From positions 91,746,543 through 91,808,752 of the forward strand of contig JARFYF010000074.1 of NCBI GenBank assembly GCA_030265395.1: a stretch of DNA of 62,210 nt, read 5' to 3'. The notes under the pieces were generated by a model, which made no database searches, was not told the DNA's origin, and was given only the letters and a program-made list of their open reading frames with translations. The position numbers were made by a program, and so were the translations under genes. The stretch comes from Rhina ancylostomus (lineage: Eukaryota). This document shows positions 25 through 61,867 of the stretch, piece by piece (position 1 is the first letter of the stretch; every line of letters starts with the position of its first letter).

Positions 25-262
25 AGAGGGAATGGTCTTTGGAACTCTCTTGCTTAAAGGTAGTGGAACAGAGTTTGAATATTCTTAAGGCAGATATAAA
101 TAGATATTTGATCAACAAGGTGATGAAAAAGCTACTGCAGGTAGATGGGAATGTAGAGATGAGTTTACAATCAGACCAGCTATGATCTTATTACGTGGCA
201 GACCAGGCTTGAAGGACCAAGTGGCCAACTCTTGCTCTTAATTTGTAGGTTCATACATACAT
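25..262 (+). mobile_element. CR1 LINE 3' end remnant
   Basis: Decayed LWNSL...VE...NILKADINRYLINK C-terminus followed by a CR1-type 3' UTR (cagctatgatcttatt...gaaggaccaagtggccaactcttgctc) and a short repeat tail. Confidence 0.75.
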
Positions 263-1844: not shown

Positions 1845-2728
1845 NNNNNNNNNNNNNNNNNNNNNNNNNNNNNNNNNNNNNNNNNNNNNNNNNNNNNNNN
1901 NNNNNNNNNNNNNNNNNNNNNNNNNNNNNNNNNNNNNNNNNNNNNNNNNNNNNNNNNNNNNNNNNNNNNNNNNNNNNNNNNNNNNNNNNNNNNNNNNNNN
2001 NTTTTTCTTGGGAGTTGCCACATGGTGAAGATCTTGCTCATTGTACCTCTTGATAGATGGAATCCATACTGCAATTCACAATCTGCTCTTTGACTAAGGG
2101 AAGACATAGCTGGGGAGAGCCCTTGGGATGGCTCCATTACAGTCTGCACAAGGGCTAGTCCACTTTTGTAGCCACCCAGATATACAAGTGAATGAAAAAG
2201 CACAAGCTACATGAAATACAAAAAGCCTTCTGGAGCAGACAGTATTCCAGGTGATGATCTAATACTTTGTGGAAACAAACGTCTTACGCACATTCATAAC
2301 CTCATTTCCCAGAGAGACTCACCAGAGGACCACATAAATGTTATAATTGTGATCATCCTCAAGTGGTGATTGTGGTTACTACAGAGGGATCTTCCTGTGG
2401 TCCATCACAGCAAAGTGGTCAAACATCCACTCTGAAAGTACAGACCAAACTAGAGGTTTCTCCAGAAGGTGGAATAAATATAACTGTGCAATCAATTTCA
2501 AATTTCCACACTATTTGCGTGAAAAATTGCTTCTGGCTTCTCTTCTAAATGGCATAGCTTTAATTTCAGCCTTTTGCCCTAAAGGAAGAAGAATTTCTCT
2601 GCTCTCCTAATGAATGTACTTAAAGATCAAACTCAAACATTTACTCAAGGTGCAACATAGTACACATAATAAATAGTCTTATGTTAAAAATCAGAATATT
2701 AAAATAGAAGTATTTTTAGTTGGAAGTT

Positions 2729-2890
2729 CTTTTTCTCCCATTTTTTTCATCAGGGCAAATACGATGAAGGTCCTCGGCCAGAAACGTCAACTGTTTATTT
2801 CCCTCCAAAGATGCTGACTGACCTGCTGAGTTCCTCCAGCACTTTTTGTGCATTGCTCCAGATTCCAGCATCTGCAGAATTTCTTGTGTC
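2729..2890 (+). mobile_element. Penelope-terminus short insertion with degenerate hammerhead motif
   Basis: cGATGA-aggtcctcggcca-GAAA-CGTC followed by gatgctgactgacctgctgagttcctccagc...gcatctgcag; flanked by ttggaagtt at 2720-2728 and 2891-2899. Confidence 0.75.
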
Positions 2891-4314
2891 TTGGAAGTTA
2901 GGAAATAACCTTTAATATTTTTTCTTAGCTTGGTCTTAAAAATGCATATAATGGTTGCAGAGAAAAATTTACTGGTACCAGGGAAGGCATTATTCAAAAC
3001 CTGCCCCTGTCTCTCTGTGGGAGAGGGGTGGGGGAGGAGGATATTGATTTTCTTTCATTTCCAAATTTTATATCTTTCCTTCCCTTTCAAAGCTGATACC
3101 AACAACTCCTAAGTACTCTGCCAAATCAGAATCCACTTGATTTCACAGCCCTAGCAACACATTGAACATACTGTATCTGGAGCACACAGCAACTGCCATG
3201 GGTGAGCAACTCACACTGAACAGGCAAAGGATTAATTGAGAAATGCAAATGTCAGCAACACTATTCTGATGTGCAAAAAAATGAGAAAGGTCTAAGGATT
3301 CTGCCATGTCAGGAATATCATTAAACTACATTTTTCCTGCCCATTATAATGCAGTTAATTTTAAAGTGACCATATTATCAGTCAGAAGGTTGATGGACCA
3401 AGCTTACTTTCTGTCCAAAAAAAACCAGTTGAAGCTTGAATCATTTTGCAAACAGGCTTCATTTAAATTCCGTCAAGGAACTTCTTAACTGTTTGGAGAA
3501 GCTGGCAGTAGAAAATCTTATAGCAGTGTCACATGGATCACTTGTCCCAGGTGAGAGAAAGTGATTCGACAAGAGGGCTGCTAATTTTTAGGAAGCGGCT
3601 AATTGTACCACTTGTTTCTGGACTGCTCTGGACTGGACTGTTCATTTCAAAATCTCCAAAGTGCCGGTGGCCTGGTTGCCACTGCCATTTTCATTGCAGT
3701 GTGACTCACTGCTTCCCACTAATGAGACAGAGAATAATAATGCACCACTCTTTGCCAAACTTTGCATTGAACTGTTAGCTGTTCTTGGGATTGTTTCAGC
3801 CAATACAAGCTTTTTCTGTGCTGGTAATAAAGAGTAGCACTCCCATCCCAAAGCTAAGTGTTGACCAGCCTAGCTGCCGGTGGAGGTGGGCCCCATAGGT
3901 CAGCTCAAGGTCACTTTTGCTGTTCTCATTAAATTCAATTTTCCAGTCCATGGCAACATTGAGAGTCAGTTCTTTCCAATCCATTCATCTTATATTGAGG
4001 AAAGGGGAAGAAACCTATACATTAATGTTACAAGGGTTACAGACAAAGAATCAACCTAATATACTCCTTGTGATAAAGGCATCATACTACTTCATGTTTA
4101 TCGACCTCTTCCATTATTTATATACTTCAGTTTACACTTTGGGAAATATGCTTATAGAGTCCATAGTTCCCTCTCTCACCATTTATTAGGGATCCAAAAA
4201 GTTCAAGGTCAGAGTTTCTAGCTAAACATAATTTATTGATGACTAACAACACCCAACCCACATAAGTGGGAAAATGCAATGTATCTGAACTCATATTTTT
4301 ACCATATTCCATAT

Positions 4315-4645: not shown

Positions 4646-6460
4646 CCTTTTAATCACATGGTACACACAGTCCTTAAAAGTACAACACACAATGCATCTA
4701 CAGTGCTGACAAGCATTTCTTGATGTGGCTTATTGAGAGGAGAAAATTCTCATTTGGGAAGGGGAGACCAAAATTATCCCAATGGGTACAGAATGTGAAT
4801 GATACCCACGGCTCTTTGGGGTCTGATTCCTTCCAGTCCTGAGGTAGCCTACTGCAAATACTGCAGGTATCATAAAACTGTATGTTAGTCTTGATAATTT
4901 CTTCAAGAGCTGACATTCATTTGTACAGTAGGACCCTGCTGGCTCTATGTGACTGCCCTTGCTACCTGCTTGGGAAAACATGTTAAAATTTGTAGACATC
5001 AGTATCTTGGTAGTTCCAGGTTAGAAAAGTAACCTGGAGTATTTTACATACATCTGGTTTATACTGGTGGGTTCGCTTCATATTCCATCATCCCCCTCCT
5101 CCGGGCTTTTCTCTCATTTTATAACTCAACGCCATACCACAGCTAATACAATGCTCAAGTTGTGATTCTTTGGGGGCTGTAATCAACATATGTTATCCTA
5201 CCAGACTGATGTGAAACAGATGTAGAGTTTAACAGTACATTCCAATATAATGACAATAAGCTCAGATTACACACCATCGGAAACAGACACGTTCCTAACT
5301 CTTCACAAGACAAACATTTTAACGTTGAGTAAAAAGTGTGCTCAGTAGACAGAATGTCTGTGAGAAGGCTTGTGACGTGTACATGAGAATTTAAACTGCA
5401 AACTTAAAAACAGTGATTATCCTAGGAGTGTGCACATCTGCAGCACACAACAAGAAACTATAATAATGACATCATTTATATGAAGCAGCAGATTACTTGG
5501 ATCAACTTTCAACTTCAACCACTCCCCACAGCTGCTGTCACCTCATTGTGAATCTCATAAACAAGACTATCTATTAAAACCACTGTGTCTGGATTTGTCA
5601 ATAATTATTTGCAGGTTAAAGCCTTTTCCTGACTTTTCCTGCAGGTCTATCACAGAGTGTCAAAGCCTTTTTGTTCCCACTTTTCATTACTTCTTTCCAC
5701 CTCACTTGTTTTCTCCTGAAGGCAGTAACTTATACCATAATATGGTTCCATATTTGCCTTTAAGTAGCTCTTAATGCACAAACCTTGATGGTTTTGGAAA
5801 CTACTGGACTGAGGCTTAACACAGCCAATCCCAATATGGACTTACATGAGGGGATATGGTGTAACCTCTACCATCAGGATAACCGAGTAGCCCACTGCCA
5901 ACCTAACAAAAATCAGTGCATAAATTTGATACTTTGCGGATCCTTGTGGACAAGTACTAAAACTAATGCTGCATTTATCCAAAATTCGACTGAATGTCTG
6001 TGTGCTTCATTCTTGAGGGGTAGTTTTAACCAACTGCACTCCTGATTCAATTGAGAGTAAAGGCAGATTCACCATGATTTTCCATCCATTGTCCATATCA
6101 CTACATAAAATTGCAATTAAGCATTTCAACCAAGGTTGATCTGCGTATTTGAAAGGTAATTGGCAATTCAATCTCAAAAAGCAAGGCATACATGAAGAAG
6201 TTCAGAGGAACTCTTTCCAGATAATGGAGTTAAATTCTGACATTGTTCTGCATTCTAGGATCTTGATTAGTACTTTTGGATCACATTCTCCAATTTATTT
6301 GTTCATTGAGAACAATGAAATCCAATGGCTGAATGTTTATTTGAATGCCTACCATCCCCTTTTGGAAACGATGTTATCACATGCCACCATTCACATGGAG
6401 GATTACTCTCAGTATTCTATCAGTGGGGGTTAGTCTTAGTGGATTCATTCACTACCCAGT

Positions 6461-6579
6461 CCTGATGCAGGGTCCCAGCCTGAAATGTCGATTATCCCTC
6501 CACAGATGCTGATCAACCTGCTGAGTCCCTTGAGCAGTTTGTTTATTGTTCCAGATTCCAGCATCTGCAGTCTCTCGTC
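6461..6579 (+). mobile_element. Penelope-terminus short insertion with hammerhead-like motif and 17-bp flanking direct repeat
   Basis: CTGATGC-AGG gtcccag CCT-GAAA-TGTC; exact ttcattcactacccagt at 6444-6460 and 6580-6596. Confidence 0.85.
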
Positions 6580-7139
6580 TTCATTCACTACCCAGTTGCT
6601 TGCTGTTCCTCTTTGCTTCTGACAAGAAGCATTCACTTTGCCTTATGTGTGAGAAAGCACAGGAAAGGTTTCAGCTCCTCTCCCTTGAATATCATTCAGA
6701 GTGACTTGTGGGTGTGATTTGATGACGGCAGTAACTGTGAGGACAGTGCACAGTGACGTTTGCCTTAAGGCTTTGTCAGGTAAACACACCAGTCACTCAT
6801 ATCATGATGGATTAATTGTAACTGTCTGTATTACAGTTCTTGCAAAGTGCTGGTTGGATACCATGGAGCTGAGGAAGGCAGTAACACCATGAGAATTTCA
6901 GCACTGAGTTTCAATGTTCCTTGCCCTGTGGGAACAAGATGGATGAGCAACAAATTTCCATTGCAGATTTATCAATGTCCAGTCTATTTAACTTATACTG
7001 AACTTCTGAGGAGATGATTTAGCCTCCTGACCAAAGTCAGCAGCTACCTTATTTAAGTATGCAGCTTTGGGTCTTATAACATCATCAAGCCTCGGTCACA
7101 ACTTTAATCCTGGTCTGACCAAGCAGGTTGCTAAGGAAA

Positions 7140-12931: not shown

Positions 12932-13165
12932 GGGCAGCACCAGTGGCGTAGCGGTTAGCGTTATGCTATCACAGCGCCAGTGATCGGGGTTCAACTCCCG
13001 CCGCTGTGTAAGGAGTTTGTACGTTCTCTCCGTGGATTTCCTCCAGGTGCTCCAGTTTCCTCCCACATTCCAAAGATGTATGGGTTAGTAGGTTAACATG
13101 GGTGTAATTGGGCGGTGCAGGTTCATTGGGCCAAAGGGACTGTTACCGTGCTGCATAAATAAGGT
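12932..13165 (+). mobile_element. tRNA-derived V-SINE with CR1-type tail
   Basis: A box tggcgtagcgg, B box ggttcaactcc, V-domain tttcctccaggtgctccagtttcctcccacattccaaag, tail gggccaaagggactgttaccgtgctg. Confidence 0.9.
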
Positions 13166-13878
13166 TTTAAAGTTTTATGACTGCAGGGATGATTCATTCC
13201 ACAACATGCCCAATCAAATTTCTGGAGTGATGTAAAATGAGCCAGGAATACTCATTATTTAATTGTATGCAGAGAGGAAGGAGTGTCTTTAAGGAAATTG
13301 CTTCTTGATTGCATTAAAGTGAAAAAAGTTCATGCGATTGAACTTCTAGATCCAAGTACCTTGTTTGTGGATGCAAAGGATTTAATGCCTGACTCAGGTA
13401 TGTGCAAAGAATGCCTCTTATTTGCTTTTGTCCAATGTGACTGTCCACTTCTTGCTGGATTTGTGTGCACAGTTCTTTACTGATGAATTGGGAACTTTGG
13501 AATTGTAAAGACAGCTACAGACCAGTCTCTAGGCCATTCAGGTATTACAAGTTCTTGGTGGTGCAGATTAAAAAGGATAAAATTAAGCACGGTTTTAACA
13601 ACAAAAATGCAATATTCAAGTCTCTAACATGTATTTAGACATCACCAAAAATATTTTAGTTCCAAAACAGCATTGAAATGTGCATACATCTGGTGTGATT
13701 CATGCCGTATGCCACATTAGAGAGGACACTGGAGCATGTGTGACATTAACTAGATTTTGGCAAATCTTAACGCCTAGTGGTGCTAGTTTAGAGCTGAGTA
13801 TTTCAGTTAACACTCTCTCTTAATTATACATAGGTGAGCACATGTTCATTAACTGACGGCGGGTTAATTCTGGTTGAT

Positions 13879-14075
13879 GGGGCGGCACGGTAGCGTAGCG
13901 GTTAGCACAACGCTATTACAGCGCTAGCGATTGGGGTTCGATTCCCGTCGCTGTCTGTAAGGAGTTTGTGCGTTCTCCCGTGTCTGTGTGGGTTTCCTCC
14001 TGGTGCTCCAGTTTCCNNNNNNNNNNTGCAGACTCATTGGGCCAGAAGGGCCTGTTACCACGCTGTAAAAAAAAA
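13879..14075 (+). mobile_element. tRNA-derived V-SINE with CR1-type tail (young, gapped)
   Basis: ggggcggcacggtagcgtagcgg A box, ggttcgattcc B box, V-domain, tail gggccagaagggcctgttaccacgctgt followed by an A run. Confidence 0.9.
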
Positions 14076-17571: not shown

Positions 17572-18035
17572 TGTTTATTTATTAGTCACACATACATTGA
17601 AACAAACAGTGAAATGAGTCTTTTTGCTTTACTAAGAATGTGTTGGGGGCAGCTCGCAAGTGTCACCACTCTTCCGGCACCTACATAGCATACCCACAGC
17701 TCCTAACCTGTATGACTTTGGAAGGTGGGAGGACACCAGAGCACCAAGAGGAAACCCATGCAGACACAGGGAGAACATACAAACTCCTTGCAGACAGCGA
17801 TGGGAANNNNNNNNNNNNNNNNNNNNNNNNNNNNNNNNNNNNNNNNNNNNNNNNNNNNNNNNNNNNNNNNNNNNNNNNNNNNNNNNNNNNNNNNNNNNNN
17901 NNNNNNGAATGTGGGAGGAAACCAGAGCACCCAGAGGAAACCCATGCAGACACAGGGAGAACATACAAACTCCTTGCAGACAGCGTTGGGAATTGAACCC
18001 AGGTTGCTGGTGCTGTAATAACGTTACACTAACCA
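17572..18035 (-). mobile_element. V-SINE with Rex/Babar-like tail; overlapping duplicate around a 100-N gap
   Basis: Reverse head (gggaattgaacccagg...acgttacactaacc), V-domain present on both sides of the gap, tail tttattagtcacacatacattgaaac. Confidence 0.85.
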
Positions 18036-18589: not shown

Positions 18590-20258
18590 AAATATTACAA
18601 CAGTGTACAAGAGGGATGGGTTGGACCTTTATTGGAGGGGGCAACCAATATTCTGGTGGGTATATTTACTAATGTTACTCAGGGTTCAAACTAGTCTGGC
18701 AGGCACCAAAGCAGTAGTGTAGCAGATGAGGAAGTTGAGGCAAATATACAAGTTAAAGTGAACATGCTCAGTAGGCAGGACAGGAAGCAAGTAAGATCTG
18801 ATAGGATAAAATGCATTTATTTTAATACAAGAAGCCAGATGGATATGGCAGATGAACTTGGGGTGATGGATAGATACAGTACATGGGACTGGGCTAATAC
18901 AGAAATATGGTTGAGGGAATGAGCAGGACTGGCAACTCACTGTTTGGAGGTACAGATGCCACAGGTGTGATAGAGATGGAGGTAAGATGGGGGTGGGAAG
19001 AGAGTTGTGTTTCTGATTAGGGAGAATATCACAGCAGTGCATAAAGATATTTCTGGTCGAGTGTCAGATGAGGTGCGAGGCTGTATAGATGAAATTCAGA
19101 AATAAGGAGCTGNNNNNNNNNNNNNNNNNNNNCAGCACCTCACCCCCCCCCCCCAACAGTCAATTGGAAATGGGGGAGCAAATATAGTGAGATTGCAGAA
19201 TCCTAAGAATAGGGTTGTAATAGTTGGCAATTTTGACTTGGACTTCAGTAAGGCCTTTGACAAGTTCCCACATGGTAGGCTGGTCCAGGAGGTTAGATCA
19301 CATGAGATTCAGGGTGAGCTAGCCAACTGGATACAAAATTTGGCTTGGTTGTCAGAAGCAGAGGATGGGAATGGAGAGTTGTTTTTCAGACTGGAGGCCT
19401 GTTACCAGCAGGGATTAGTACTGGGTCCACTGTCGTTCGTCATTTATATTAATGATTTGGATAAGGATGTAGTTGACACGATTCATATGTCTGCGGATGA
19501 CACCAAAATTTGTGGTATAGCAGTTACAATGAAGAAGTTACAATGGGATCTAGAACAACTGGGAAGTGCTGCATTTTGGGAAATTAAACCAGGGCAGGGC
19601 TTTGGAGAGTGCTGCAGAACTGAGGCCTAAGTATAGAAGTGCTTAGATTCCTGGGAGTCTCAACACAAGTAGACGTGGTGCAGAAGGCGGCATTTGGGAT
19701 GCTTGCCTTCAGTCGAGGTGCTGAGTGCAAGAGTTAGGTCATTATGTTACAACTGTATAAGACGTTGGTGAGACTTCAATTGGAGTATTGTGCGCAGCTC
19801 TGGTTGCTGAGCTATAGGAAGGAAGTCAATAAGTTGGAAAAGGTGTAGAATAAATTCATAAGGATGTTACTGGGACTGAAAGGCTTGAGTTATAAGAGAC
19901 TGGATAGGCTAGGGTTTTCTTCCCAGAAGCATAGGAGGTTGAGGAGTAACCTTTATGGAGGTAAAATGATCAGGGACAGAGATAGGGTGAATGGTCAGTC
20001 TTTTTCCCCGGGTAGGGAAGTCTTAAAACTACAGATTTGAGAGGGGAAAATTTTTAAGGGGACATAAGGGACAACTATTTCACTGGTAGAGATGGGTACA
20101 ATTACAATGTTTAAAAAGCATGTAGACAGGTACATAGATTGGAAAGGTTTAGATGAATAAAGGCCAAATGCAGGCAAGTGAGTTTAGCTCAGGTAGGCAA
20201 CTTTGTTGATGCGGACTAGTTGGGCCAAAGGGCCTGTTTTCATGCTGTATAACTGTAC
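18590..20258 (+). mobile_element. CR1 LINE with large internal deletion (APE remnant fused to RT, then 3' end)
   Basis: ORF 19187-19630: NRVVIVGNF joined to LDFSKAFDKFPHGRL..QGLVLGPLSFVIYINDLD..ADDTK; tail gggccaaagggcctgtttt. Confidence 0.9.
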
Positions 20259-20429
20259 GTAGAATATAGATCAGTACAGCACAGGACCAGGCCCTTTGGC
20301 TCACAATATTTGTGCTGACCATCATGCTAATCCAAATTAATCCCATCTGCCTTCACGTGTTCTATATCCGGCCTTTCCCTGCCTGTTCATGTGCCTGTTT
20401 AAATGCTTCTTAAACATTGTTATTGTTTA

Positions 20430-21281: not shown

Positions 21282-22289
21282 TATATCTGCTTCCACCTCT
21301 TCCCCTGGCAGTATCTACCTCTATGTACAATAAAACCTTGCCTCATAAATCTTAAATATTTAATCTTTCCCTCTCTCAACTTAAAGGCATGACCTCTAGT
21401 AGTTAGTCTATTAGACCTTGAGACATTTCCACCTTGGGAAAAGACTCTGACTATCTACCCTATGACTCTCATCATTTTACATACTTCTATCAGGTTGCTC
21501 ATCAGCCTCTGGCACTCCAGGGAAAATAAGTTTGTCCAACATCTCCTTTATAGTTAATACTCTCTAATCCCAACAACATTCTGGTGAACCCCTTCTGCAC
21601 TTTCTCTAGAGCCTTCACATCCTTCCTGTAATGCAGCCACCAGAACTGCATGCAATGCTCCAAATGTGACCTAACCAAAGTTTTATACAGCTGCAACATG
21701 ACCTCCTGATATTTTTTAATATCTACATTCATTATAAACAAACACACACAATAGCCTGACTGATGAAGGCAAGTATACTGTACAACTTCTTTACCACCCT
21801 ATCTACTTGTGTTGCCACTTCCAAAGAGCTATGGACTTGCATCCCAAGATCCCTCTGTACATCAATGCTCCTAAGGTTCCTGCCAATTATTGCATACTTT
21901 CCTCTTGTATTTGACCTCCCAAAATGCAACATCTCTCTTTGTCTGGTGTAACCTCAACCTGCCATTTCTCTGCCCACATCTGACTGGTCTATATCCTGCT
22001 GAATCCTTTGACAACTTTCCTCACTATCCAAAACTCTGCCAGTCTTTGTGCCATCTGCAAACTTAATAATCCACCCACCTACATTTTTTGTCCAAATCAC
22101 TTATACATTACAAATATCACAGAGGTCCCNNNNNNNNNNNNNNNNNNNNNNNNNNNNNNNNNNNNNNNNNNNNNNNNNNNNNNNNNNNNNNNNNNNNNNN
22201 NNNNNNNNNNNNNNNNNNNNNNNNNNNNNTGTTGGCATATTGTGGGCCGAAGGGCCTGTTCTGTGCTGTACTGTCCTGTGTTCTATAAT

Positions 22290-23280
22290 TAACACCCTGA
22301 CTGATGAAGGCAAGTATACTGTATGCCGCCTTTACCGCCCTATCTATTTGTGTTGCCACTTTCAGAGAGATATGAACTTGCACCCCAAGATCCCTCTGTA
22401 CATCAACACTACAGCCATTTTCTGTGTACTTTCCCCTTACATTTGACTTCTGAAAATGTAATATCTCATATTTGTCCAGATTAAATGCCATCTGCCATTT
22501 CTCTGCCCATATCTGTATCCTGCTGTATCCTTTGACGACCTTCCTCATTGTCCACAACTCCACCAATTTTTGTGTCGGCAAACTTCCTAATTAGCCTACC
22601 CACATTTTCATTCAAATCATTTGTATAATTCAGAAACAGACATCCCAGCACTGATCACTGCAAAACACCACAGGTCACAGACCTCTGGTCACGATAACTT
22701 CCCTCCACCACTACCCTCTGTCTTCTATGACCAAGCTAATTTTGAATCCAATCTACCAAGTCTCTGGATTCCATGCGGCTTAATTTCCTGGGTCGGCCTA
22801 TGCATGAGGGATCTTGTTGAACGCTTTACTGAAGTCTATGTATACAAACAACCACTGCCCTACCCCCATCAATCATCTTTGTCATCTCCTCAAAAAACTC
22901 AATCAAGTTGGTAAGATGTGACCTCCCCCACATAAAGCCATGCTGACTATCCCTAATAAGTCAATGCTTTTCCAGATGCTAGTAGATCCCATCCTTGAGA
23001 ATGTTCTCTAGTAATTTTCATAACACTGATGTAAAGTCCACCAGCCTATAATTTCCTAGTTGATCTCTCTTGCCCTTCTTAAACAGAGGGAAAACATTGG
23101 CTATTTTCCAGTCCTCAGGGACCTTGCCTGTGGCTGAAGAGGATATAAAGATCTGTGTCAGGGCCCCAACAATCTCTCTCTTGCTTCTCTCAATAACCTG
23201 GGATATCTCCCATCAGGCCCTGGGGACTTCAAGAACCCCAACACCACCACCTCACATTGCCCTAGAATATTAGCACATCC
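22290..23280 (-). mobile_element. CR1 LINE RT region
   Basis: ORF 22117-22581 (WAEKWQMAFNLDKYEILHF..QRDLGVQVHISL); reverse motifs for QHGF, DFSKAF and NYRLV. Confidence 0.85.
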
Positions 23281-24149: not shown

Positions 24150-24242
24150 AATGAAAGCAGAGAATACTGAAAACACTCAGCATTTCAGGTGGCACATGGC
24201 ACAATGTTAAAGTTTCAGGCCAATGACCCCCTCATGAGAAAA
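24150..24242 (-). mobile_element. Old Penelope-terminus copy with degenerate hammerhead motif
   Basis: Minus strand reads ctcatga-ggggg tcattgg cct-gaaa-c and is followed by the gctgagtgttttcagtattc family body. Confidence 0.5.
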
Positions 24243-25269
24243 ACTAGAAACCAGATACGTTGCAGAGAAGTCTGATGGGGTGGAGATCAGGAGAAACAGA
24301 ATGACACAAGTGGAGGGGCTGCTGGTTGCAAGAGGGTGGTAGAGGTTTGGTTATTGCAGATGATCAATCTGAAGACTGTACATAGGAGGAAACAGAATTA
24401 AAACAGGAGAAGGGAGAGGGAAAAAGAAGCAAAAACCACTGCTGGAATGGAGATGCATATTGAAAAACCAATACCCAACCCCAATTTAACATAACCCCAA
24501 ATATTAAAAATGGTGTCTGCCAGATATGATCCATTACATCTACATGATGCTGTAATACACCACTTTCATCTAAGATCCTTACAGCAGTATGCATGTTTTG
24601 TATCAGTCCTTCACAATGCAGTTTTTTTTTCAAGCTTTCATACTGCCATCCAAGCTACTGATAACAGCTGAAGTAGAATCAAGATCCTTAAAATGATCTC
24701 TGCAGAAATCAGTCTATAATTGTTCCTCAAGGAGAACCAATTCAATTTCCTTCCATCTATTTCAATGCAGCCCAAAATAATCTTATTTAGTGAGTTGCAT
24801 CAAATTCAGTATACATGATGCAACCAAACAACAATTTACGGACCAGTAATGTTCTCCAAATTGAAGCAGGTGAATAAGAAACCAAATTGAGCTTGGAATT
24901 TTTGTCCATTTGGCTTATTAATTTGAATCTGCAACCACTCAATGTTCAGGAAATGCATTCTAGATGATGATCATCATTATATTTAAAACATTTATCCTCC
25001 ACAATCCCTCCCAATCTTTTGGCAATCACTTTAAATCTATTAAAAGGAGTGTGGGAAACTGAATGCCAGTGAAGTTTTTAAAAAAAAGTATAGTAAAGAA
25101 TCCCAATGGGTGAAAAGAGCATGTGAAACAAAAGAGTTTGAATAATCATTTGGTTTAAACAAAGATGAAGGGAATTGAAATTGTTCCTTCACATTTAAAA
25201 AAAAGTAATCTAATGGATATAGTATTATATGCATATTTTCTATTAGCTGAATTAATCTAATAAATAGAT

Positions 25270-34229: not shown

Positions 34230-34530
34230 GATGTGCATGTTGGGTTTGTCCTATTTTCAGGCTTTCTGGTGCTGGGGTGGGGGAGCAGCATCTGCATCGC
34301 CCTGATGGCCCAAAGAACATGAAACTATACCAGATGTCACTGGACGTTACACTTCCCGTATGTTCAGGTAGTCTGTGACCACACCCAGAAAACTGGTCAA
34401 TGTCAAGAACCTGTAGATATCCACATACCTTCATCATCTTAGGCCAATTAGCTGTGTCCACTATCAGCTATATTGCCAAATCAATAGGTGACTGCTTGTG
34501 GTCAAAGCTTGTTCCTGTATACCTGGACCC
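34230..34530 (+). mobile_element. Harbinger/PIF transposase N-terminal relic
   Basis: WVCPIFR, KLYQMSLD, QVVCDHTQKTGQCQEPVD and GQLAVSTISYIAKSIGDCLWSKLVPVYL follow the order of Harbinger transposase N-terminal/HTH motifs, with frameshifts. Confidence 0.55.
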
Positions 34531-34599
34531 AGACTCCAGTGAATCTGACCTGAACAGTGCATCTGACCTGAATATTAGGACAAAATGCAGTCTCCTGGA

Positions 34600-36355
34600 A
34601 TTTCATGGAACACAAGATTCATGTTTCACAACTCTTTTAGAGTTCTTTGAAGAAGTAACCAAAAGGATAGATGAGGGTAGGGCAGTGGACGTCCATTTAG
34701 ACTTTAGTAAGGCCTTCAACGTGGNNNNNNNNNNNNNNNNNNNNNNNNNNNNNNNNNNNNNNNNNNNNNNNNNNNNNNNNNNNNNNNNNNNNNNNNNNNN
34801 NNNNNNNNNNNNNNNNNNNNNNNNTGAGGGTAGGGCAGTGGACGTCCATTTAGACTTTAGTAAGGCCTTCAACGTGGTCCCACATGGCAGACTAGTCTGG
34901 AAGATTAGGTCCCATGGAATCCAGGGAGAGCTAGTTAGGTGGATTCAAAATTACCTCAAAGGTAGGAGGCAGAAGGTGGTGGTTAAAGGTTGTTTCCTGG
35001 AATAGAGACCAGTGATTAGTGATGTGCTACAGGGGTTGGTTTGGGACCTGTGTTATTCGTTATTTGTATAAATGATTTGGATGCAAATGCATAAAGCTTG
35101 TTCAGCAAGTTTGCAGATGATGCAAAGTTAGGAGGTGTTGTTGATAGTGAAGAAGGTTATCATAGATTACAGGGGAGTCTTGAGCAGTTGGGGAAGTGGG
35201 CTGAGGACTGGCAAGTGGATTGCAATACAGATAAGCGTGAGGTGATGCATTTGGAAAGTCAAACCAGAGTAGGGCTTATACCATGAATGGCAGGGCATTA
35301 GGGAGCATAAGGGAACTGAGGGACCTAGGAGTACAAATGCATAGTTCATTTAAAGAGGCATCACAGGTAGGCAGGGTGGTAAAAAAGGCATTTAGCATGT
35401 TGGCCTTCAGTCAGGGCACTGAGTATAGGAGTTGGAACATTATGTTGCAGTGTATAACTCATTGGTGAGGCTGCACTTGGAGTACTGTGTACAGTTTTGG
35501 TCACCCTATTATAGAAAAGGGTTAAACTGGAAAGAATGCATAGTAGATTTATGAGTGTGTTACCAGGACTAGAGGGCCTGAGTTCTAGGCAGAGGTTGTT
35601 CAGGCTAGGTCTTTATTCCTTGGAATGTAGGAGAATGAGGGACGACCTTAGAAATGTTTAAAATTATGAGAGGCATAGATAAGGTGGATGGTAACAGTCT
35701 TCCCCCGGTTAGGGGAGTCCAAAACTAGGGGGCATAGATTTAGGGTGAGAGCTATCTTCATATAATATAGATCCCTTTTCAATAACCTTTGAACTTAGAG
35801 GAGCGGAGTTGACAACATAATAATGCTTTTTGTTCATCGAGAAATATCAGTCCAGTTTGTTTTGATTTTTTTGATTTGGGTTTTTTTATTATAGAATAAA
35901 TCTTTTTCTTTCTATTTTTGATTTTTTTTCTGTATTATATTCACTTATTAAGAGACTGTGGGGTCTAGAATATTTTTTATTCTTTGATTATATATATCAT
36001 GATTGTCCTCCCAATCTCTTTGTATCACGTGTATAATCATTGTTATTTGTATTAATCTGTATTAATTTGAAAATTAATAAAAAGATTGAAAGGGGAGAGA
36101 TTTAAAAGGGGACCTGAGGGGCAACTTTTTAATGCAGGGTGTGGGGAGTATGGAATAAGCTGCCAGAGGAAGTGGTTGAGGCAGGAACAATAGTATTAGT
36201 TAAGCAGCACTTGGATGGGTACATGGAGGGGTGGGGTTTAGAGGGATATGGGCCAAATGCAAGAAATTGGGACAAGCTGGGTGAGCACCATGGTTGGTGT
36301 GGACTGGTTGGGCTGAAGGGCCTGTATCCATGCTGTATTGCTCTATGACTGTATG
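34600..36355 (+). mobile_element. CR1 LINE RT to 3' end (relatively young), interrupted at 35752-36091
   Basis: TLLEFFEEVTKRIDEGRAVDVHLDFSKAFNVVPHGRL, SKFADDAKLGGVVDSEEG, VWNKLPEEVVEAG; tail gggctgaagggcctgtatccatgctgtattgctctatgact. Confidence 0.95.
35752..36091 (+). mobile_element. Probable L1/Tx1-type 3' UTR insertion inside CR1
   Basis: T-rich 340-bp block ending in aataaaaagattgaaa; the CR1 text gggtgagag|ggggagagattt resumes exactly across it (compare the uninterrupted copy at about 44560). Confidence 0.55.
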
Positions 36356-46415: not shown

Positions 46416-46892
46416 AAACTCATTGAGCTGAATGGCATTTCTGTGTTTGGAAAGTACTGGGTGGGGGAGGAGGAACCACGTCAAATCAGTTGTTTTATCA
46501 CAAGAACAGGTCAACACGTCAGAACCAAAATGTCCCCCTCCATCAGTGAGCAAGGGACATGTTCCTGTTAATGCTGGGCAATGGCATAATAATGCATTGA
46601 TTCCAGACAAACACATTCAAATTCCAGTAAACATCTTCCAGAAAGGTGGGATAATTTTATCATGGTGATTTTGTGACTAAATAATTGTTTGCAAGTACTG
46701 TCCATTTTCCAATGTTGCAAAGCAAGAGAAAGCATATTATCAGCTTCTTGTTAACAATTTAAAAAAAAGGCAACAATTTTATTCAGAGCTTTTCTTATTC
46801 TCTGGACTGAGCTTCTACTTTTCATGTTCATACACTTGCTTTGCTACCACTGGTTGTGGTATCATACTAAAACTCTGTTTTGCACAAACAGC

Positions 46893-47020
46893 AAAACCTG
46901 CAGATTCTGGAAATCTGAAATAAAAACAAAATGCTGGAATTTCTCAACAGGTCTGGCAGTATCTATGGAGAGAGAAACTGAGTTAATGTCTCAGGTCAAT
47001 GACCTTTAATCAGAACTGGA
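46893..47020 (-). mobile_element. Penelope pseudo-LTR copy with degenerate hammerhead motif
   Basis: Minus strand reads ttCTGATTA-aaggtca tt gacct-GAGA-catt, then the family body ending ccagaatctgcagg. Confidence 0.7.
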
Positions 47021-47189
47021 AAAGTGAGAAAACAAGTGTGTCTTTTTGAAATGTAGGAAGAGTGATGAGTGGAGAGAGCAAGGGAACCGAAGTGACACAA
47101 ATACTTTTGGTGTTTTCTTAAAGAGGAAGTGAAAGTTTACTAATCCAAGCTGATTTTTCTGGAAGGGTGTAAACGCTGAGATGGTGAGA

Positions 47190-47975
47190 TGCAGAAAGCT
47201 GCTGCTGTTGGAAATCTGAAATAAAAGCGAATGCTGGAAATACTTAGGAAATCAGGGAACGTGTAGAGAGAGAAAATGGTGTAGGTTAATGCCCTTGTAC
47301 CTGAACTGGTCAGTTCAATATCGATCCCAAGGACTGCAACCTGATGAGGTGGAAAATGAAATGGAAAATTCCTCAAGTATACACTGGACTTTGTTAGAAC
47401 AGTGTGAGAGGCCAAGGCAGAAAGATCAGGGTGGGAGTTAGATGGAAAATTAAAATGACAACGGGGATCGCCTGAATGGAAGTGTTCTGCAAAGCAGTCA
47501 CCTAATTTGCACATATTTCATCACAAGTAGAGGAACACAAATCTTGAGCACTGCACTGAACTTGTTCCAGGTTACGACAGGGTTCTATTCCTGAGACCTG
47601 TTCGTAACCTGAACGGTTTGTAGGTTGGAAATGTGGCTGCCTCACAATATATTTAAATGAAACATAGGCCAACCAAGGGCAGCATGTAGGGGTATTTAAC
47701 TCAACTGTTCAATTTTCTCTGCAAGATGCAATGATATTGCCGTGAACTGAGTTATTACATAGCAGGAGGTACCTGCAGCAACTGGAAAATCTAACCCACC
47801 AGTTTCCCAGATGCTCATTTGTATGTCTGAACTGTACATAAGTCAAGTGTTGAGAACCCAGGGAGGATCTGTACATTCAGTTGAAAGAAGTGTGAGTGAA
47901 TAGCTGTTTCACCTGGAAAGACTATTTGGGTCCATGGATATTGGGAAAGGAAAAGGCAAAAGGACAGATGTAGAT
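47190..47975 (-). mobile_element. Penelope-like element, GIY-YIG endonuclease relic plus terminal repeat
   Basis: CKLGDCFAEHFHS..CHFNFPSNSHPDLSAL..FHF..VLGIDIEL resembles the Penelope GETKRRLGDRFAEH..HFNS..GLNIEF region; upstream QCSRFVFLYL and a GPKQSFQVK-like segment at about 47900; second terminal repeat at 47190-47290. Confidence 0.75.
47565..47873. mobile_element. Tigger/pogo-like MITE inserted in the Penelope relic
   Basis: caggttacgacagggttctattcc..ttcgtaacctgaac at the left and gtacataagtcaagtgttgagaacccagggaggatctgta at the right; it splits the GIY-YIG reading. Confidence 0.55.
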
Positions 47976-51072: not shown

Positions 51073-52359
51073 CGTACAAATCACTGCAATGAATTTACTT
51101 GAAATTTATCCGTAGCAATTCTTCAACTTTCATCCTTAAAGATTTGAAAAAGGAAAATAAAACATTAATGCATCTAAATCATGAGCAGATTTCTACTGGG
51201 AAGTTGGAGGCTATTTGCTTGTCAGAATTGTCTGGTTTTTGAGTGCAGGAGGTTGCTAGCTTCCACACTGTTTTGTGAACTTTCCTCAGATGTATGCTTG
51301 GAAAATAAATTATTTGTGCAGTCCTTGTTTATTTGCTGTAGAAAGATAAATACACCTATTGCCTACATATAGGGGAATGTCAGCCAAATGTAAACATAAA
51401 GATTAAACTTTAAATTTTCAATGCAACAGTATTTATAAATTATAATCACTTGAAGTAAAATCTTTTTTTATCTGAAACTACCTCTAAGCTTGGTGATCAT
51501 ACAGTGTCTTTAATTCTGACCCAATGTCTCTTAAAGCTGATGGTGATGAGAGTGAACAGTGAAGATCAGTCATCAATACTTGGTATGGCATGAGTGACCT
51601 GCACATCTTTGTAATCTGGTGCTCGGACAATGGCAGATACCAGTGTTTGCCATTGCATCTTGTATTCTTCTCTGATGAAACTAGGTGTTTGTAACAAAAC
51701 TGCGATCTAAGCATTTTCCAGAAGACCCCTCTTGTCTTCTGTACTCTTTCCTTGCCGATCATACCTTGCCAGAGGGTTACATCTCATCTCATTCTGGTAT
51801 GGAAGTCATCTGTGAGGATTCCTTTGTGGTGATTATCTTCATTATAAAATTGTTATNNNNNNNNNNAGCGCCACCTCCTGGCATTTTTAGGAATAGCTGT
51901 CATTTTAGTTTCTCGTTCACTGCTCTTGGCAGGAAAACTTCAGTTGAAGGGTACGCGAGTCAAAGGTAGTGCTCCAATTCTGTGCTATTCCTTGTTAGAA
52001 GGATGAGAATGTGCAATAAGTTCTTTTTTGAATAAAAAAAGTGGAATCCAATGATGGGGACTAACATCAGTAATACTACAGTTTCCAAATATAGAAACAC
52101 CTTATTTGATTGCAATTTTAAACTGACGACACAATCAGATTAGTTGAAATAAAAATAACGCTTTTTGAAATTGCTGGGATTTGATTAAAAAATACAGTTT
52201 GTATCCCAGAAGTGAGCTGTCTGAATGAAAGTTGGAAGCTAAAAAAGCATTTAAAAAATAAAAGACTTCTAAAGGTTAAAGAGAGGTGGAAAGTACATAT
52301 GCCTTATTACCATTATGATCAGGTAATGAGAAGCTATCAACAGGAAAAAAGGAAATATA

Positions 52360-52452
52360 AATAGAAAATGGTAGAAATACTCAGCAGGTCAGGTATGATC
52401 TGTGGAGAGAGAATTAGATAACATTTTTGGGTCAATGATCTTTCATTAGCCT
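52360..52452 (-). mobile_element. Old Penelope-terminus copy
   Basis: aatactcagcaggtcagg..atctgtggagagaga..gggtcaatgatctttcattag, matching the copy at 46893. Confidence 0.6.
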
Positions 52453-53365: not shown

Positions 53366-53397
53366 AAATATCCATTGAATCTACATTTTTCCTTCAT

Positions 53398-53550
53398 GGC
53401 AAGAAACAATCTGCTGGATGATCCTGATGCAGGTTTTCGACCTGAAACATCAACATTTCCTTTCCTCCCACAGATACCACTCGACTCATTGAGTTCCTCC
53501 AGCAGATTTTGCTGCTCCAGATTTCAGCATCTGCAGTCTCTTGTGTCATC
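53398..53550 (+). mobile_element. Penelope-terminus short insertion with inverted 5' piece and 12-bp flanking direct repeat
   Basis: CTGATGC-aggt tttcg acct-GAAA-CATC; tttttccttcat at 53386-53397 and 53551-53562; leading gcaagaaacaatctgctgga is an imperfect reverse complement of the body. Confidence 0.85.
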
Positions 53551-55444
53551 TTTTTCCTTCATAAGTCTGACTATCCTGTCTGACTATCTCAAGCTTTTTT
53601 TCTGACCAATGTATTAATGATTTTTCCATCTCCAAGTGACCTGTGGCTGTTTTCCCTTTGCCTTTATCCTTTCTTCAGCCATCTGTCTAACCTGTTTTTA
53701 GAATGTGATGGTCTCTGATTCAGTCAGTAATCTGGTGGTGCATTCAACTGCCTCTCAAAGTTTTAAAAACAAAACCTTCTCCTGCTCTGTTTTAAATTGC
53801 TTGCATTTAATCTTTTATTGATGTTCTCCCTGCTAGCCTTTTCAGCCAATGAAAACTGTTATTGCTATTGATGCAGCCCCATTCCATTCTAATGTTAACC
53901 TCACTTTCAGATCAACTAGATAGCTCCTCAACCAAAACCAGCCCCAGTTTTTCAAATGCTTGCTATCTTTATTTCCAGATCTAAATCTCATCTGCATTGG
54001 TGAAGGGGGAGTGAGATTGGGTTCAGGAAGTTGTTACACAAAATCTGTTCCCCTAGCCCCTATATTTCATCACAAAAAAGCACGAGTGAAGAAAACAACA
54101 TTTTGATTTTCCATTCTGCCCAATTGCTTTCTAGTCTCTGGATGCCCTCTGACTGAAGGCAGGAAATCTGAAATTTTTAAAAAATTAACTTGTAACACCA
54201 GAATGTCCTTTCCCTGCAAAATCTTAAAAGTGATGCAATTGCCTTTTTCATCTAGAGTTAATGTGTGCAAACAAATTCAGAAATGCAGATGAAAACAGAT
54301 GGCAAAAAGTTGAAGGTTAGAACATAACAAATAAAGTAAGGGTAAAGCATGGTACCTGAGCCTGATTCACCAATCTGTGAGATAGTGGCTGACCAAACTA
54401 CCTACAGTCACACTTCCTGTTCAATCCAAAGTGAGTTTGTTCCTTGTAAATAAATTGCTTGTTAATTTTGGTTGATCTTTATATTTAAGATTTATCTAAA
54501 AAGATGAACTCTGCCATTTTTTATTCAAGAGTGGCAAGATTTTGTAAAAATATGTCCAGTTTGTAATTTTCAAATGATTGTTAACAAATCCCTCCATGGA
54601 TGGGTGGGGTTATTTAAGAAAATATAAATAAAATTAAATAGTAAATTTAAATGAAGCTTAATGATAATTCACACAAGTTTTAATTTNNNNNNNNNNAGCC
54701 ACAATACAACTCTATACATGTTTGTTTTGTTGTTATCCATTCTAATTGTACACCCATTACATGATTAAATCTGCTGCAGATGCATTCTTGGTTTATATTT
54801 ATGTATACTACGTATTAACCAATCATAACAAACTTTCACATGCAATACAACTAACCAAGTTCAGAATATTTCTTCTTCTTAACATATAAAATAAATTTCT
54901 ACAGTAAGGCACGTTACGTTTCATTTTATGGTTCCCTAGGAAAGAACAATTGAAGTCTTCCTGATTTGTTAATGAGAGGATTGTCTGGCAGTTTTGTTCT
55001 TGAAGCAATAGACATTGAGATATTTTGCTCAACAGTTATCAAATTGTTCAAATAAGACTTTATCTATCACCATGTTGTAAATGCAGCGAGATTGTCTCTC
55101 TCTTTCAAAAAAAAGAAAATTAGAGTTAGATTGAGTAACAACTTGGATAACATTATATGCTAGAAATATTTATGGACTTGCAGATTAAACCACAAAATAG
55201 CACACTAATTCTAAAATACATAGTCTAGTGATTTCTTAAATGCTCATTATGTTTTTTTTCCAGCTTGCCATCTGCTTTGTCATTTAACCCCAAAGTGATG
55301 TGACTCACCAACTTCCCTGACTGGAAATTATTTACTTATGTATAAACATGTAGTTCCCCACACCTATAATATGTAGAATTGGTCCATTTATGATACTTTT
55401 TCTTGCTGCTATTACTGATTATCTAATCAGAATGCTTCTGCCAG

Positions 55445-59460: not shown

Positions 59461-61339
59461 AACCCTCTACTTTTAACAACTTACAGCATCTTCACATCTA
59501 GCTGTTTTTTCCTGTCAATCCCCTTAAGACTGTTCAAGTTTCACTGTCATCATCCAACTCCCAAAAGCTGCAAACATACACTGAAATTAGTTTGACCACA
59601 GAGTCCCAAATTATGTTTACTCAAAGATGGCAGAAAATCCACTTGTCCTATTATGAATGCTTCTTAATGTTCTTTGTTCAAGCTAGCTATTTTCTCTTGC
59701 TACTGAGACAGATGGGTGGCTAGGAAAATTCCCTGGAGGCTAGATTGGCCAAAGGAACAGCAGCATCTGGAAGGAAGGGATCTGCAGCAGGAATAATACC
59801 CAGATTTCTCAGGCCCCGGTTTGTGTATTTTTATGAATGTTCAGGATTTTGTGAATTTGCATGTGATCTTTACGCAAGGTCCACGTCCACCTTCTCTGCA
59901 TTGTTACGATTTTAGTGTATGTGCAAGCCCCTTTGTCCTACACCACTGATCGTTAAATCATAACAAAAAATGTTCATGGTAATTGTGCAATATGAAAGGA
60001 AGACTCCCAAGGTTTGAGCTTTCCGAAGGTTTCACTTGCTTAGGGATACACAGGATGATTTAATGCGCTTCCCCAGCAATGAATGTTTATAAGATGCTGC
60101 TGGAAAAGGATGAGGATGTATCACCCATCTTTTTGGCTTGGAAGTACAGGTGCTCCCCAGGTTACAAACACTCATCTTTCGTACAGCTCATACATTGGAG
60201 CGATCTTTTGGAACACTTGTGGGATGGATTTGCTAGCTGCTGTAGGGCTGCAGGCATCTTCTGTTGCGTGGGGACTCACTTCACAGTAATATCGTTGCAT
60301 TTTGCAGGGAAACTGAATGGTTGAGTTAAGTGTCCTGGTGTATTTACTTGTTGCCCTTGGTTAGCCCATGTTTTTATTTAAATATATTGCCAAGCTGCTG
60401 CATTTCTGACTTGCAAACTATTCAGGTTCTGAACAGTTCTCAGGAGTGCAACCTTGTNNNNNNNNNNNNNNNNNNNNNNNNNNNNNNNNNNNNNNNNNNN
60501 NNNNNNNNNNNNNNNNNNNNNNNNNNNNNNNNNNNNNNNNNNNNNNNNNNNNNNNNNNNCCAGTAGACACATGTCCTGTGTCTACTGGACATGTCTGAGG
60601 GTTGATAATTCTACAGCAGCCTTGAGAAAATTGACTCCTTGATCCTTTGCTAGTTGGACGGATTCAATGAAGTGACTGCTGGCTCTCAAACACATTAAGC
60701 TGGAAGCACAGTTTTCATCTGCTGGCTTCTAATGGGCTCTTTATCACATTGAAAATAACAGTATTAGTAAGCAGAGAGAATTTACAGAGGATAAGAGAGT
60801 GAAAAGGAGCGACGCCAGAAACTCCCCTGGCTCTTTGTTGGCAGAATTTCACTCCAGTCTTCTGAATCAATTGCTTGAAGGTTTGGATCAGGCCCTGGTT
60901 TGGATTTGTGAGGTAACCTGTTAAAATGATGTTGCCTCTTAACTTTATTTGCATACTCAATTTTGTATGTATTCCGGGGGCCCATTCACCTCTGGTGGGC
61001 ATCTTCACTGGCACCAAATAACTCCATAGTTAAAATGGGGTTAAAACTCCATGGTTAAAATGACAGCTGGTAGGAATGCAATAGAAAGGGAATGTAAAGT
61101 GTGCTGGGCAGTCTTAACTACCCATCTGTCTTGGATCTGTGGTCTCTACAGATAAGTGAAATCAATCAAGTTTATAAATAGAATGCTGAAGGTACAAGTT
61201 ATGTCCTGGCTCAGGAGTAACATTACAGAGGGAAATTAGAACAACGTTGTTCAAGTGGCTCACTAATGCGTCCTCACTGTTTTGTCTTATTATATGGACC
61301 AGTTATTCCAATTGTAAAACTGCAAATGATTACAATCAT

Positions 61340-61384
61340 TTTTGTTGCTGCTGACCTGCTGAGTTCCTCCAGCACTTCTTGTGT
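61340..61384 (+). mobile_element. 45-bp Penelope-terminus fragment with 11-bp flanking direct repeat
   Basis: tgctgctgacctgctgagttcctccagcacttcttgtgt lies between attacaatcat at 61329-61339 and 61385-61395. Confidence 0.8.
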
Positions 61385-61867
61385 ATTACAATCATGACTG
61401 ATGTTTTGTTTGTTCATATGCTGTTAAGCAAAAAAGTTAATTCATTCGTATCTGCTGCTTCTTAACAAGTATTTCTTTCATCCACCTCTAAAACAATGCA
61501 AAATTTCACATTTCCAGATCAAATCTCTAGCACTGTTACATGCCACATTGTGCTGTTGTGCTATTCTACAGTTAGATATTAGGAATTACAAGCACATTTG
61601 TAAATGCAAAAATGTAGAATGAATGAAATGGCAAGGTGTGCTTGTAAAATCCTTTGTAACTTAACTGTTTTAAAAATAAATAGTTTGGCATAATGTCTGT
61701 TATTTATTAAATTGGGAATCATATTAACCTTCAACAAATTCCTGGAGATTTTGATTCCTTAAGTGTCTGAAAACAGTTGGAGATTTTAACCAAGGGTCTA
61801 ATAAGTACAGGACGACTCGCCCATTCTTATGTAGTATGAATCAATGAGTCACTGCAGTCTGAGTTAT

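What the first reader, a model, noticed from the sequence alone, without database searches (positions are those of the whole stretch)
6444..6596. Tiny hammerhead-bearing Penelope-terminus insertions with their own target-site duplications (retrozyme/SINE-like family)
Seen: four short inserts of one family have exact flanking direct repeats: 2729-2890 (9 bp), 6461-6579 (17 bp), 53398-53550 (12 bp) and 61340-61384 (11 bp). Three carry a CUGAUGN-stem II-GAAA-YRUC motif near their 5' end. Known: Penelope-like elements carry minimal type I hammerheads in their pseudo-LTRs, with helix III reduced to a short palindrome such as ACGU that is thought to work as a dimer. Inference: these are independent target-primed insertions, either a non-autonomous ribozyme-bearing retro-RNA mobilised by Penelope RT/GIY-YIG or repeated extreme 5' truncation near the hammerhead. 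The 6461 copy starts right at stem I. This is the best candidate here for an under-described system, although PLE hammerheads themselves are known.
Basis: partly seen in the sequence, partly recalled or inferred. Interest (0 to 1): 0.7.

Follow-up and report, generated by a model that had tools for sequence, protein, structure and literature searches.

The report
Penelope end-repeat stubs, run-off copies
These four short inserts are end repeats of a very common Penelope-type jumping gene rather than a separate self-cutting mini-element, and most such stubs stop just in front of the ribozyme motif, likely because copying starts inside the element's RNA and runs off its beginning.

Summary
All four inserts and their exact flanking repeats (9, 17, 12, 11 bp) are real and beyond chance. 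They are not a retrozyme/SINE family. The ~130-nt unit is the pseudo-LTR of autonomous Penelope-like elements. It follows the GIY-YIG gene in long copies and stands at both ends of one full-length scaffold. About 90 copies/Mb of the two subfamilies occur, with the class's known one-sided tail and head-to-head arms. Short and long copies are not separate lineages. None of the three motif-bearing copies keeps a canonical hammerhead core. The 5' ends are not random either: they end at a roughly tenfold higher rate at +10..-7 around the first core base, and show no excess at the cleavage site. Best reading (inferred): reverse transcription starts 95-130 nt inside the RNA's 5' repeat and runs off the transcript start, at an initiator-like YCAGT. 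The short cDNA is then inserted alone, paired head to head, or jumps to a 3' part of the RNA. No RNA data could be had. The scan saw such stubs, and the stop in front of the ribozyme, in other shark-like genomes. The jump junctions are added here.

The parts
6444..6460 (+). left target-site duplication (17 bp); its last 4 bases CAGT double as element positions -5..-2 (microhomology)
6461..6579 (+). solo pLTR stub, subfamily C, element positions about -1..+122 (with tail); position 0 = first core C at 6462
6457..6494 (+). decayed minimal type I hammerhead: helix I 5' strand 6457-6461, CUGAUGC 6462-6468, helix II, GAAA 6482-6485, would-be cleavage after 6489; A9=C, helix III palindrome ACGU changed to AUGU
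6580..6596 (+). right target-site duplication (17 bp)
2720..2899 (+). subfamily A stub: 9-bp TSDs 2720-2728 and 2891-2899; 34 extra nt at 2729-2762 (include a 9-nt reverse complement of positions -1..+7); unit +2..+129 at 2763-2890 with tail; core broken
53386..53562 (+). subfamily C stub: 12-bp TSDs; 19-nt inverted arm 53400-53418 from the no-tail end; forward unit -2..+125 at 53422-53547 with tail
61329..61395 (+). subfamily A stub: 11-bp TSDs; positions about +49..+93, no hammerhead, ends at the inner (no-tail) 3' end
46878..47972 (-). 5'-truncated, decayed Penelope copy of subfamily E: GIY-YIG remnants (47972-47886, 47556-47416) followed by two units in partial tandem (47309-47206; 47020-46878)
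52352..52449 (-). subfamily E stub, positions 0..+98, no tail
24152..24281 (-). old subfamily E fragment with some upstream UTR

Best explanation
The inserts are solo pseudo-LTR stubs of autonomous Penelope-like retrotransposons with a C-terminal GIY-YIG domain, likely made when reverse transcription starts inside the RNA's 5' repeat and runs off the RNA's 5' end just in front of the hammerhead. Shown: the unit is the terminal repeat at both ends of the element; 3' ends fall at two sites (~+95, ~+126-130); 5' ends pile up at +10..-7 and not at the cleavage site; short and long copies are not separate lineages. Inferred: the transcript starts at about -4 (initiator-like YCAGT). The element protein nicks AT-rich DNA and primes at one of the two internal sites, on uncleaved RNA, as shown in vitro for the anole element. 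The 100-135-nt run-off cDNA is then (i) joined alone by microhomology (6461), (ii) joined head to head with a second cDNA primed from the other strand at the other site (53398), or (iii) carried on after a jump to a more 3' part of the RNA, giving partial tandems and full-length copies. The genomic stubs are dead; their ribozymes have decayed.
For: Unit lies 500-800 nt behind the GIY-YIG end in 12 of 30 loci picked on that end; most of the rest are cut by N gaps or contig ends. For type C, GIY-YIG, UTR and unit are in line in L206. The RT frame finds 14 proteins at E<=1e-20, three of four scanned carry RVT_1 plus GIY-YIG, and the L164 frame aligns to that GIY-YIG at E 2e-24. L320: 14-bp TSD, inverted unit, unit from +2, body with RT, gap, unit, TSD. 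Ends per 100 nt at risk, random 1.04 Mb, types A+C: 0.22, 0.32, 0.55, then 3.78 (+10..-7), 2.02, 1.39, 0.45, 0.20; type E and the young set peak in the same bin (3.48, 2.58). In short copies the match to the long-copy letters falls from about 70% at -1..-3 to background by -6/-7 in all three subfamilies. 83 head-to-head against 4 tail-to-tail pairs, tail on one arm only in 73 of 83. The no-tail arm reaches further 5' in 41 of 65 unequal pairs, which fold-back of one cDNA cannot give. Arm lengths are correlated (6 both beyond -12, 11 one, 67 none; p 0.0006). 8 of 14 loci picked on the body's first 211 nt, plus L272, read unit - 155-730 nt of body - jump - unit. The jump lands at -3..-6 in 5 of these 9, and in L343 both units start at the same base, -31. 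YCAGT is kept in all three subfamilies although -4/-5 do not pair in helix I of type C and -5 does not in type E. G at -5 in 13 of 24 non-C short copies, 0 of 103 long (possible cap trace, weak). PMC11167929: internal initiation at two sites, both strands extended, hammerhead cleavage not needed.
Against: No transcript start was observed. The peak is 17 nt wide with a shoulder to -60 (2.0 and 1.4 per 100 nt), and the bins were chosen after seeing the data. Ends come from local alignments next to a low-complexity C/T-rich UTR, and very short pieces are under-detected. The hammerhead region is also a local stability peak (about -6.5 kcal/mol per 40 nt against -0.4 to -4.9 upstream) and holds near-palindromes, so a structure-caused stop is not excluded; windows at +50..+80 are about as stable without a peak of ends. 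The same-base double start rests on one clear locus (L343) and one low-complexity one (L337); in L334 and L336 the two starts differ by a few bases. The G excess is post hoc (p 0.04 and 0.02) and partly explained by inverted arms. In D. virilis the start site lies 46 nt before an intron that ends at helix I (PMC2377424, PMC4209133), i.e. upstream of the hammerhead. Tail and length are not associated (p 0.49). The Inr consensus is recalled.
Confidence: 0.62

Rival explanations
1. Same elements, but the stubs are 5' truncations from the 3' pLTR with a structure-caused hot spot: once RT has copied through the hammerhead, the cDNA folds on itself (helix I/II complements, TCAG..CTGA near-palindrome), leaves the RNA and is joined.
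For: Local stability peaks over -20..+40; junctions of inverted arms share letters in 38 of 74 pairs; PMC3846280 (passages) reads junction palindromes as self-priming; long copies are truncated at scattered points as well.
Against: Ends sit on the far (5') side of the structure, not at its 3' base where RT arrives; only 5 of 74 pairs join through helix I; equally stable windows at +50..+80 give no peak; correlated arm lengths and L343 point to a limit set by the RNA.
Confidence: 0.22
2. A separate non-autonomous hammerhead retro-RNA (retrozyme/SINE) amplified from short master copies by Penelope proteins.
For: Short copies outnumber long ones; a stub with a start site at -4 would carry both initiation sites; in type A four positions (+1, +34, +35, +81) differ between short and long sets at p<0.01; animal retrozymes derive from pLTRs (bioRxiv 10.64898/2026.07.22.740005).
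Against: Type C: no column differs (0 of 430 tests, 77 short, 42 long); the nearest neighbour of a short copy is a long one in 46 of 77 (C) and 17 of 31 (A); the type A variant also has long copies (5) and the long set was picked with one seed. 81 of 83 junctions are distinct; 31 upstream flanks share nothing (one marginal pair); no tandem array in the window; no ends at the cleavage site. Power is limited (about 80 columns at 78-80% identity).
Confidence: 0.07
3. The wall is a 3' splice site (pyrimidine tract + CAG at -5..-3): spliced or back-spliced RNA served as template.
For: The sequence fits an acceptor, and the D. virilis intron ends at helix I (PMC4209133); letters at -3, -4, -5 fall off like an exon end.
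Against: No shared first exon upstream; TSDs often abut the unit at -1..-5 with 0-2 extra nt; none of 9 body-to-unit junctions sits before GT on the body side and they land at -3..-137, not all at -2.
Confidence: 0.05
4. An antisense RNA whose 3' end lies near -4 is the template and self-primes (model of PMC3846280).
For: Explains head-to-head over tail-to-tail (83 vs 4).
Against: In vitro the sense RNA is copied from the two tail sites (PMC11167929); solo stubs and jump junctions are not explained.
Confidence: 0.04

Closest known systems
EN+ Penelope-like elements, likely Neptune clade (PMC8557442, PMC3846280; passages read)
   Same: RT plus C-terminal GIY-YIG with a Cys-rich linker, pLTRs in partial tandem, inverted 5' copy, one-sided 30-40-nt tail, 9-17-bp TSDs, heavy 5' truncation.
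   Different: Those passages do not quantify a pile-up of 5' ends at helix I or unit-body-jump-unit copies; clade not tested by a tree.
Minimal hammerheads of metazoan pLTRs (PMC4209133; abstract, results, discussion read)
   Same: Type A ancestor fits: CUGAUGA, unpaired base before G10.1, ACGU palindrome for helix III, 5-bp helix I; single motifs and opposite-strand pairs across the genome were already put down to truncated elements.
   Different: Type C has C at A9 (57 vs 0 canonical of 114) and a 3-bp helix I; the window copies are decayed.
PAc (Poseidon of Anolis) internal initiation (PMC11167929; main text read)
   Same: Two initiation sites about 100-130 nt behind the hammerhead match the two 3' ends; uncleaved RNA as template; both strands extended; AT-rich targets (TSDs 66% AT vs 59%).
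   Different: That paper assumes a multi-copy mRNA and does not discuss run-off at the RNA's 5' end or a jump.
Animal non-LTR retrozymes (PMC7229834 passages; bioRxiv 10.64898/2026.07.22.740005 abstract to discussion)
   Same: Type I hammerhead, pLTR-related, no protein, large TSDs.
   Different: Retrozymes are tandem repeats processed to circles; these are dispersed monomers or inverted pairs with no boundary at the cleavage site and no lineage of their own.
Minus-strand strong-stop DNA and strand transfer of LTR elements (recalled)
   Same: Works like it in the best reading: priming near the RNA's 5' end, run-off, jump to the 3' part.
   Different: Primed by nicked target DNA, not tRNA; observed jumps are imprecise; not a member.

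Membership tests
EN+ Penelope-like element | single ORF with RT and C-terminal GIY-YIG linked to the unit | tested here: met
   (RVT_1 E 6e-5, below cut-off); all copies seen are broken
EN+ Penelope-like element | pLTR at both ends / partial tandem | tested here: met
   L320, L221, window 46878-47309
EN+ Penelope-like element | inverted 5' copy and one-sided 30-40-nt tail | tested here: met
   83 head-to-head pairs, 73 with the tail on one arm
EN+ Penelope-like element | target-site duplication | tested here: met
   4 of 4 in the window; exact >=9 bp in 9 of 57 random, 9 of 34 young, 3 of 18 further copies; null 0.4%
Neptune clade | Zn-finger-like motif between RT and EN; placement in an RT tree | tested here: inconclusive
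   Cys-x4-Cys-x2-Cys before GIY-YIG in L164 and L179; no reference Neptune sequence held, no tree
minimal type I hammerhead | core CUGANGA/GAAA/UH, helices I and II, palindromic helix III | tested here: inconclusive
   met by the majority letters of type A (12 of 99 pieces keep both core halves); not met by type C (0 of 114) nor by any window copy; one compensatory change between subfamilies (-1:+28 C-G to U-A in E); variation within subfamilies is mostly CpG decay
minimal type I hammerhead | self-cleavage as a dimer | not testable with these tools
   bench assay needed
non-LTR retrozyme | head-to-tail tandem repeats each with a hammerhead | tested here: not met
   window copies dispersed, no such array; jump copies hold two units around unequal body pieces
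non-LTR retrozyme | unit-length linear and circular RNA | not testable with these tools
   needs RNA data
non-autonomous SINE-like family | own lineage with shared ends and diagnostic changes | tested here: not met

The most novel reading that the evidence does not exclude
Penelope-like elements replicate by a strong-stop and strand-transfer cycle. RT starts inside the 5' repeat, runs off the capped start at the hammerhead, and jumps to the RNA's 3' end. Ribozyme cleavage in the downstream repeat would leave a ~31-nt terminal redundancy (-4..+27) that makes the jump seamless. The 10^5 stubs, the inverted arms and the partial tandems are all failed or imprecise transfers. This would give the hammerhead a function and explain pLTR formation.
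Probability: 0.25. Interest if true: 0.75.

Novelty: new member of a known kind. Interest (0 to 1): 0.36.

Why it matters
The inserts themselves are ordinary dead Penelope stubs, among the commonest repeats of this genome. The value lies in the fossil record: where the stubs stop and how they jump bears on an open question, how Penelope elements copy a whole RNA when reverse transcription starts near its 5' end, how pseudo-LTRs and inverted arms arise, and what the hammerhead is for. The run-off reading makes sharp predictions that the existing anole in vitro system and a 5'-end map can test.

Tried and rejected
Rfam scan of the window: no hammerhead family at E<=5; a motif without helix III may simply not fit those models. 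PDB sequence search with the RT frame: 0 hits. Pfam on the GIY-YIG frames of L164, L179 and the window: no GIY-YIG hit; window frame against P0003: none; identity rests. No RNA holder listed. Empty-site test: the one relative found (X2, a few percent diverged) has contigs running from flank into all four inserts, so no empty allele was seen. Shared first exon upstream of short copies: none. Shared sequence behind the tail among 167 copies: only overlaps and one inverted pair; the body was found by walking. Tail versus length: no link. Folding: no held copy has the whole canonical motif; monomer and dimer minimum-energy folds of the three window copies are not hammerheads. No tree was built; column tests and nearest neighbours were used. 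The Luense 2016 paper on dimer-cleaving variants was seen only as cited in PMC6765202, so whether A9=C variants cleave is open. Paper search returned shark ecology. Searches listed no paper on run-off or strand transfer in Penelope elements; subscription journals, Repbase and Dfam are outside the tools, and no supplements were opened (those of PMC4209133 and the bioRxiv preprint may list cartilaginous-fish motifs).

Full report
Positions below are counted from the first C of the hammerhead core CUGAUG (= 0); the would-be cleavage site is after +27.

1. Observation. Swapped flanks give 9 bp in 0.42% of 3362 pairs and 10 bp in none. They are homologous, but profile models split them into type A (2729, 61340) and type C (6461, 53398). 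A third type, E, has further copies in the window, one of them behind GIY-YIG remnants at 47972-47416 on the minus strand. No window copy keeps a canonical core: 2729 lacks the first CU, 6461 and 53398 have C at A9 and a broken ACGU palindrome, and 61340 has no hammerhead. Contigs of a relative a few percent diverged run from the flanks into all four inserts, so they are old.

2. What the unit is. In 1,043,408 non-N bases of stretches chosen by round coordinates (the window left out) I count 50 type A, 42 type C and 106 type E insertions; scaled up, of the order of 10^5 each (inference). In 12 of 30 loci picked on a GIY-YIG end the type A unit follows 500-800 nt later; most others are cut by gaps or contig ends. 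The type C unit follows its own UTR in 19 of 20 loci picked on that UTR, and GIY-YIG in L206. Upstream lie thumb and RT frames. The RT frame finds 14 proteins at E<=1e-20, the best from cartilaginous fish. Three of the four scanned carry RVT_1 and GIY-YIG, and the L164 frame aligns to that domain. Walking 5' gave L320: 14-bp TSD, inverted unit (+96 to 0), unit from +2 to +130, body into RT, an assembly gap, unit, TSD. The unit is therefore a pseudo-LTR. A Cys-rich linker suggests the Neptune clade (PMC8557442, passages); no tree was made.

3. Known Penelope signatures. 3' ends are bimodal, near +95 and +126-130, the 30-40-nt tail. Among all loci held at that point there are 83 head-to-head and 4 tail-to-tail pairs. 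The tail is on one arm only in 73 of 83, both arms are of one subfamily in 82 of 83, and 81 junctions are distinct (a few loci overlap). Window copy 53398 is such a pair in miniature and 61340 is a no-tail piece. These layouts are described in PMC8557442 and PMC3846280 (passages). PMC4209133 (abstract, results, discussion) already reports single and opposite-strand minimal hammerheads as probable remains of truncated elements.

4. Not a separate family. Type C: none of 430 column tests differs between 77 short and 42 long copies. Type A: four positions differ, but the variant has long copies too and the long set came from one seed. Short copies most often have a long nearest neighbour (46 of 77; 17 of 31). 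31 upstream flanks share nothing beyond one marginal pair. The window holds no tandem array of the unit, unlike retrozymes (PMC7229834, passages; bioRxiv 10.64898/2026.07.22.740005, abstract to discussion). Power is modest at about 80 columns.

5. The 5' ends are not random. For 115 type A+C pieces of the random sample (19 censored at gaps, model ends or continuing C/T-rich UTR), ends per 100 nt at risk are 0.22 (+60..41), 0.32 (+40..26, holding the cleavage site), 0.55, 3.78 (+10..-7), 2.02, 1.39, 0.45 and 0.20 (-151..-500). Type E (120 pieces) peaks at 3.48 and 57 copies picked only on their last 65 nt at 2.58 in the same bin; type E has a second rise at -61..-150 near its model's limit. In short copies agreement with long-copy letters drops from about 70% at -1..-3 to background by -6/-7, while long copies stay near 70-95%. 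So templates were not ribozyme-cleaved, in line with PMC11167929 (main text), where cleavage is not needed and RT starts at two internal sites that match the tail. Caveats: bins chosen after the fact, local-alignment ends, a low-complexity UTR, and loss of very short pieces.

6. Why there? Four lines favour the end of the RNA over a stall. (a) Of 14 loci picked on the first 211 nt of the body, 8 (plus L272) read unit, 155-730 nt of body, jump, unit. The jump lands at -3..-6 in 5 of 9, otherwise at -31, -96, -119 and -137, and never before a GT donor. In L343 both units begin at the same base, -31, so the downstream unit is a copy of the upstream repeat. The other six loci are the query itself, two long bodies and three unclear ones. 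(b) When one arm of an inverted pair passes -12 the other does so far more often (6 both, 11 one, 67 neither; p 0.0006; includes loci picked on UTR). (c) The no-tail arm reaches further in 41 of 65 unequal pairs, which needs two cDNAs. (d) YCAGT at -6..-2 fits the recalled initiator YYANWYY with A at -4 and is kept in all three subfamilies, even where it no longer pairs in helix I. G stands at -5 in 13 of 24 non-C short copies and 0 of 103 long ones, a weak hint of a copied cap. Against: no start site was observed, the region is structured, and in D. virilis the start lies upstream of an intron that ends at helix I (PMC2377424, passages; PMC4209133).

7. Ribozyme. Majority letters of type A form a textbook minimal hammerhead with 5-bp helix I, 4-bp helix II and ACGU. 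Type E carries one compensatory change at the closing pair of helix I. Type C has C at A9 (57 to 0 of 114) and 3 bp of helix I. Only 12 of 99 type A pieces keep both core halves, with CpG decay the main loss. Activity is untested.

8. Verdict. An ordinary member of a known class; the retrozyme/SINE reading fails. The under-described part is the wall of 5' ends and the jump junctions, best read as run-off and transfer of an internally started cDNA (0.62). Searches listed no paper that states this, within a library that lacks subscription journals. The scan's notes from other shark-like genomes (read after this reading was formed) reach the same class and flag the same stop as a puzzle; they are not independent support.

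Noticed in passing
window 59833-59943 (-): U6 snRNA-like copy, 43.6 bits, E 1.2e-7, just under the Rfam cut-off; probably a pseudogene.
   Followed up: no
window 61869-61900; L341: Many contigs of both runs join the unit's 3' end to the short-repeat tail of another repeat found here, and the TSD of L341 is the neighbouring sequence: possibly a preferred target.
   Followed up: partly
window 34379-36350 and 43700-44824; 19106-20260; 22100-22900: Decayed LINE copies with RT frames; CR1/HER1-like label is recalled.
   Followed up: no
window 12970-14070, 17576-18017, 46133-46363, 49742-49935, 50939-51060: Several copies of one short interspersed repeat in both orientations; SINE label is recalled.
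   Followed up: no
window 55367-55587 and 57358-57578: 221-nt direct repeat, 87% identical, 1991 nt apart.
   Followed up: no
L221 (G000:C84:99296001-99306000, minus): Partial tandem of two RT-GIY-YIG bodies with an inverted UTR piece between them.
   Followed up: partly
L254, L054 384, L041 3751 and others: A sub-lineage with A at +1 (CAGAUGA, a core position) in 14 type A and 11 type C-assigned pieces, long and short: a further non-canonical hammerhead variant.
   Followed up: partly
G000:C63:80029000-80033000: Cluster of six type A pieces within 4 kb, some with body start joined to UTR.
   Followed up: partly
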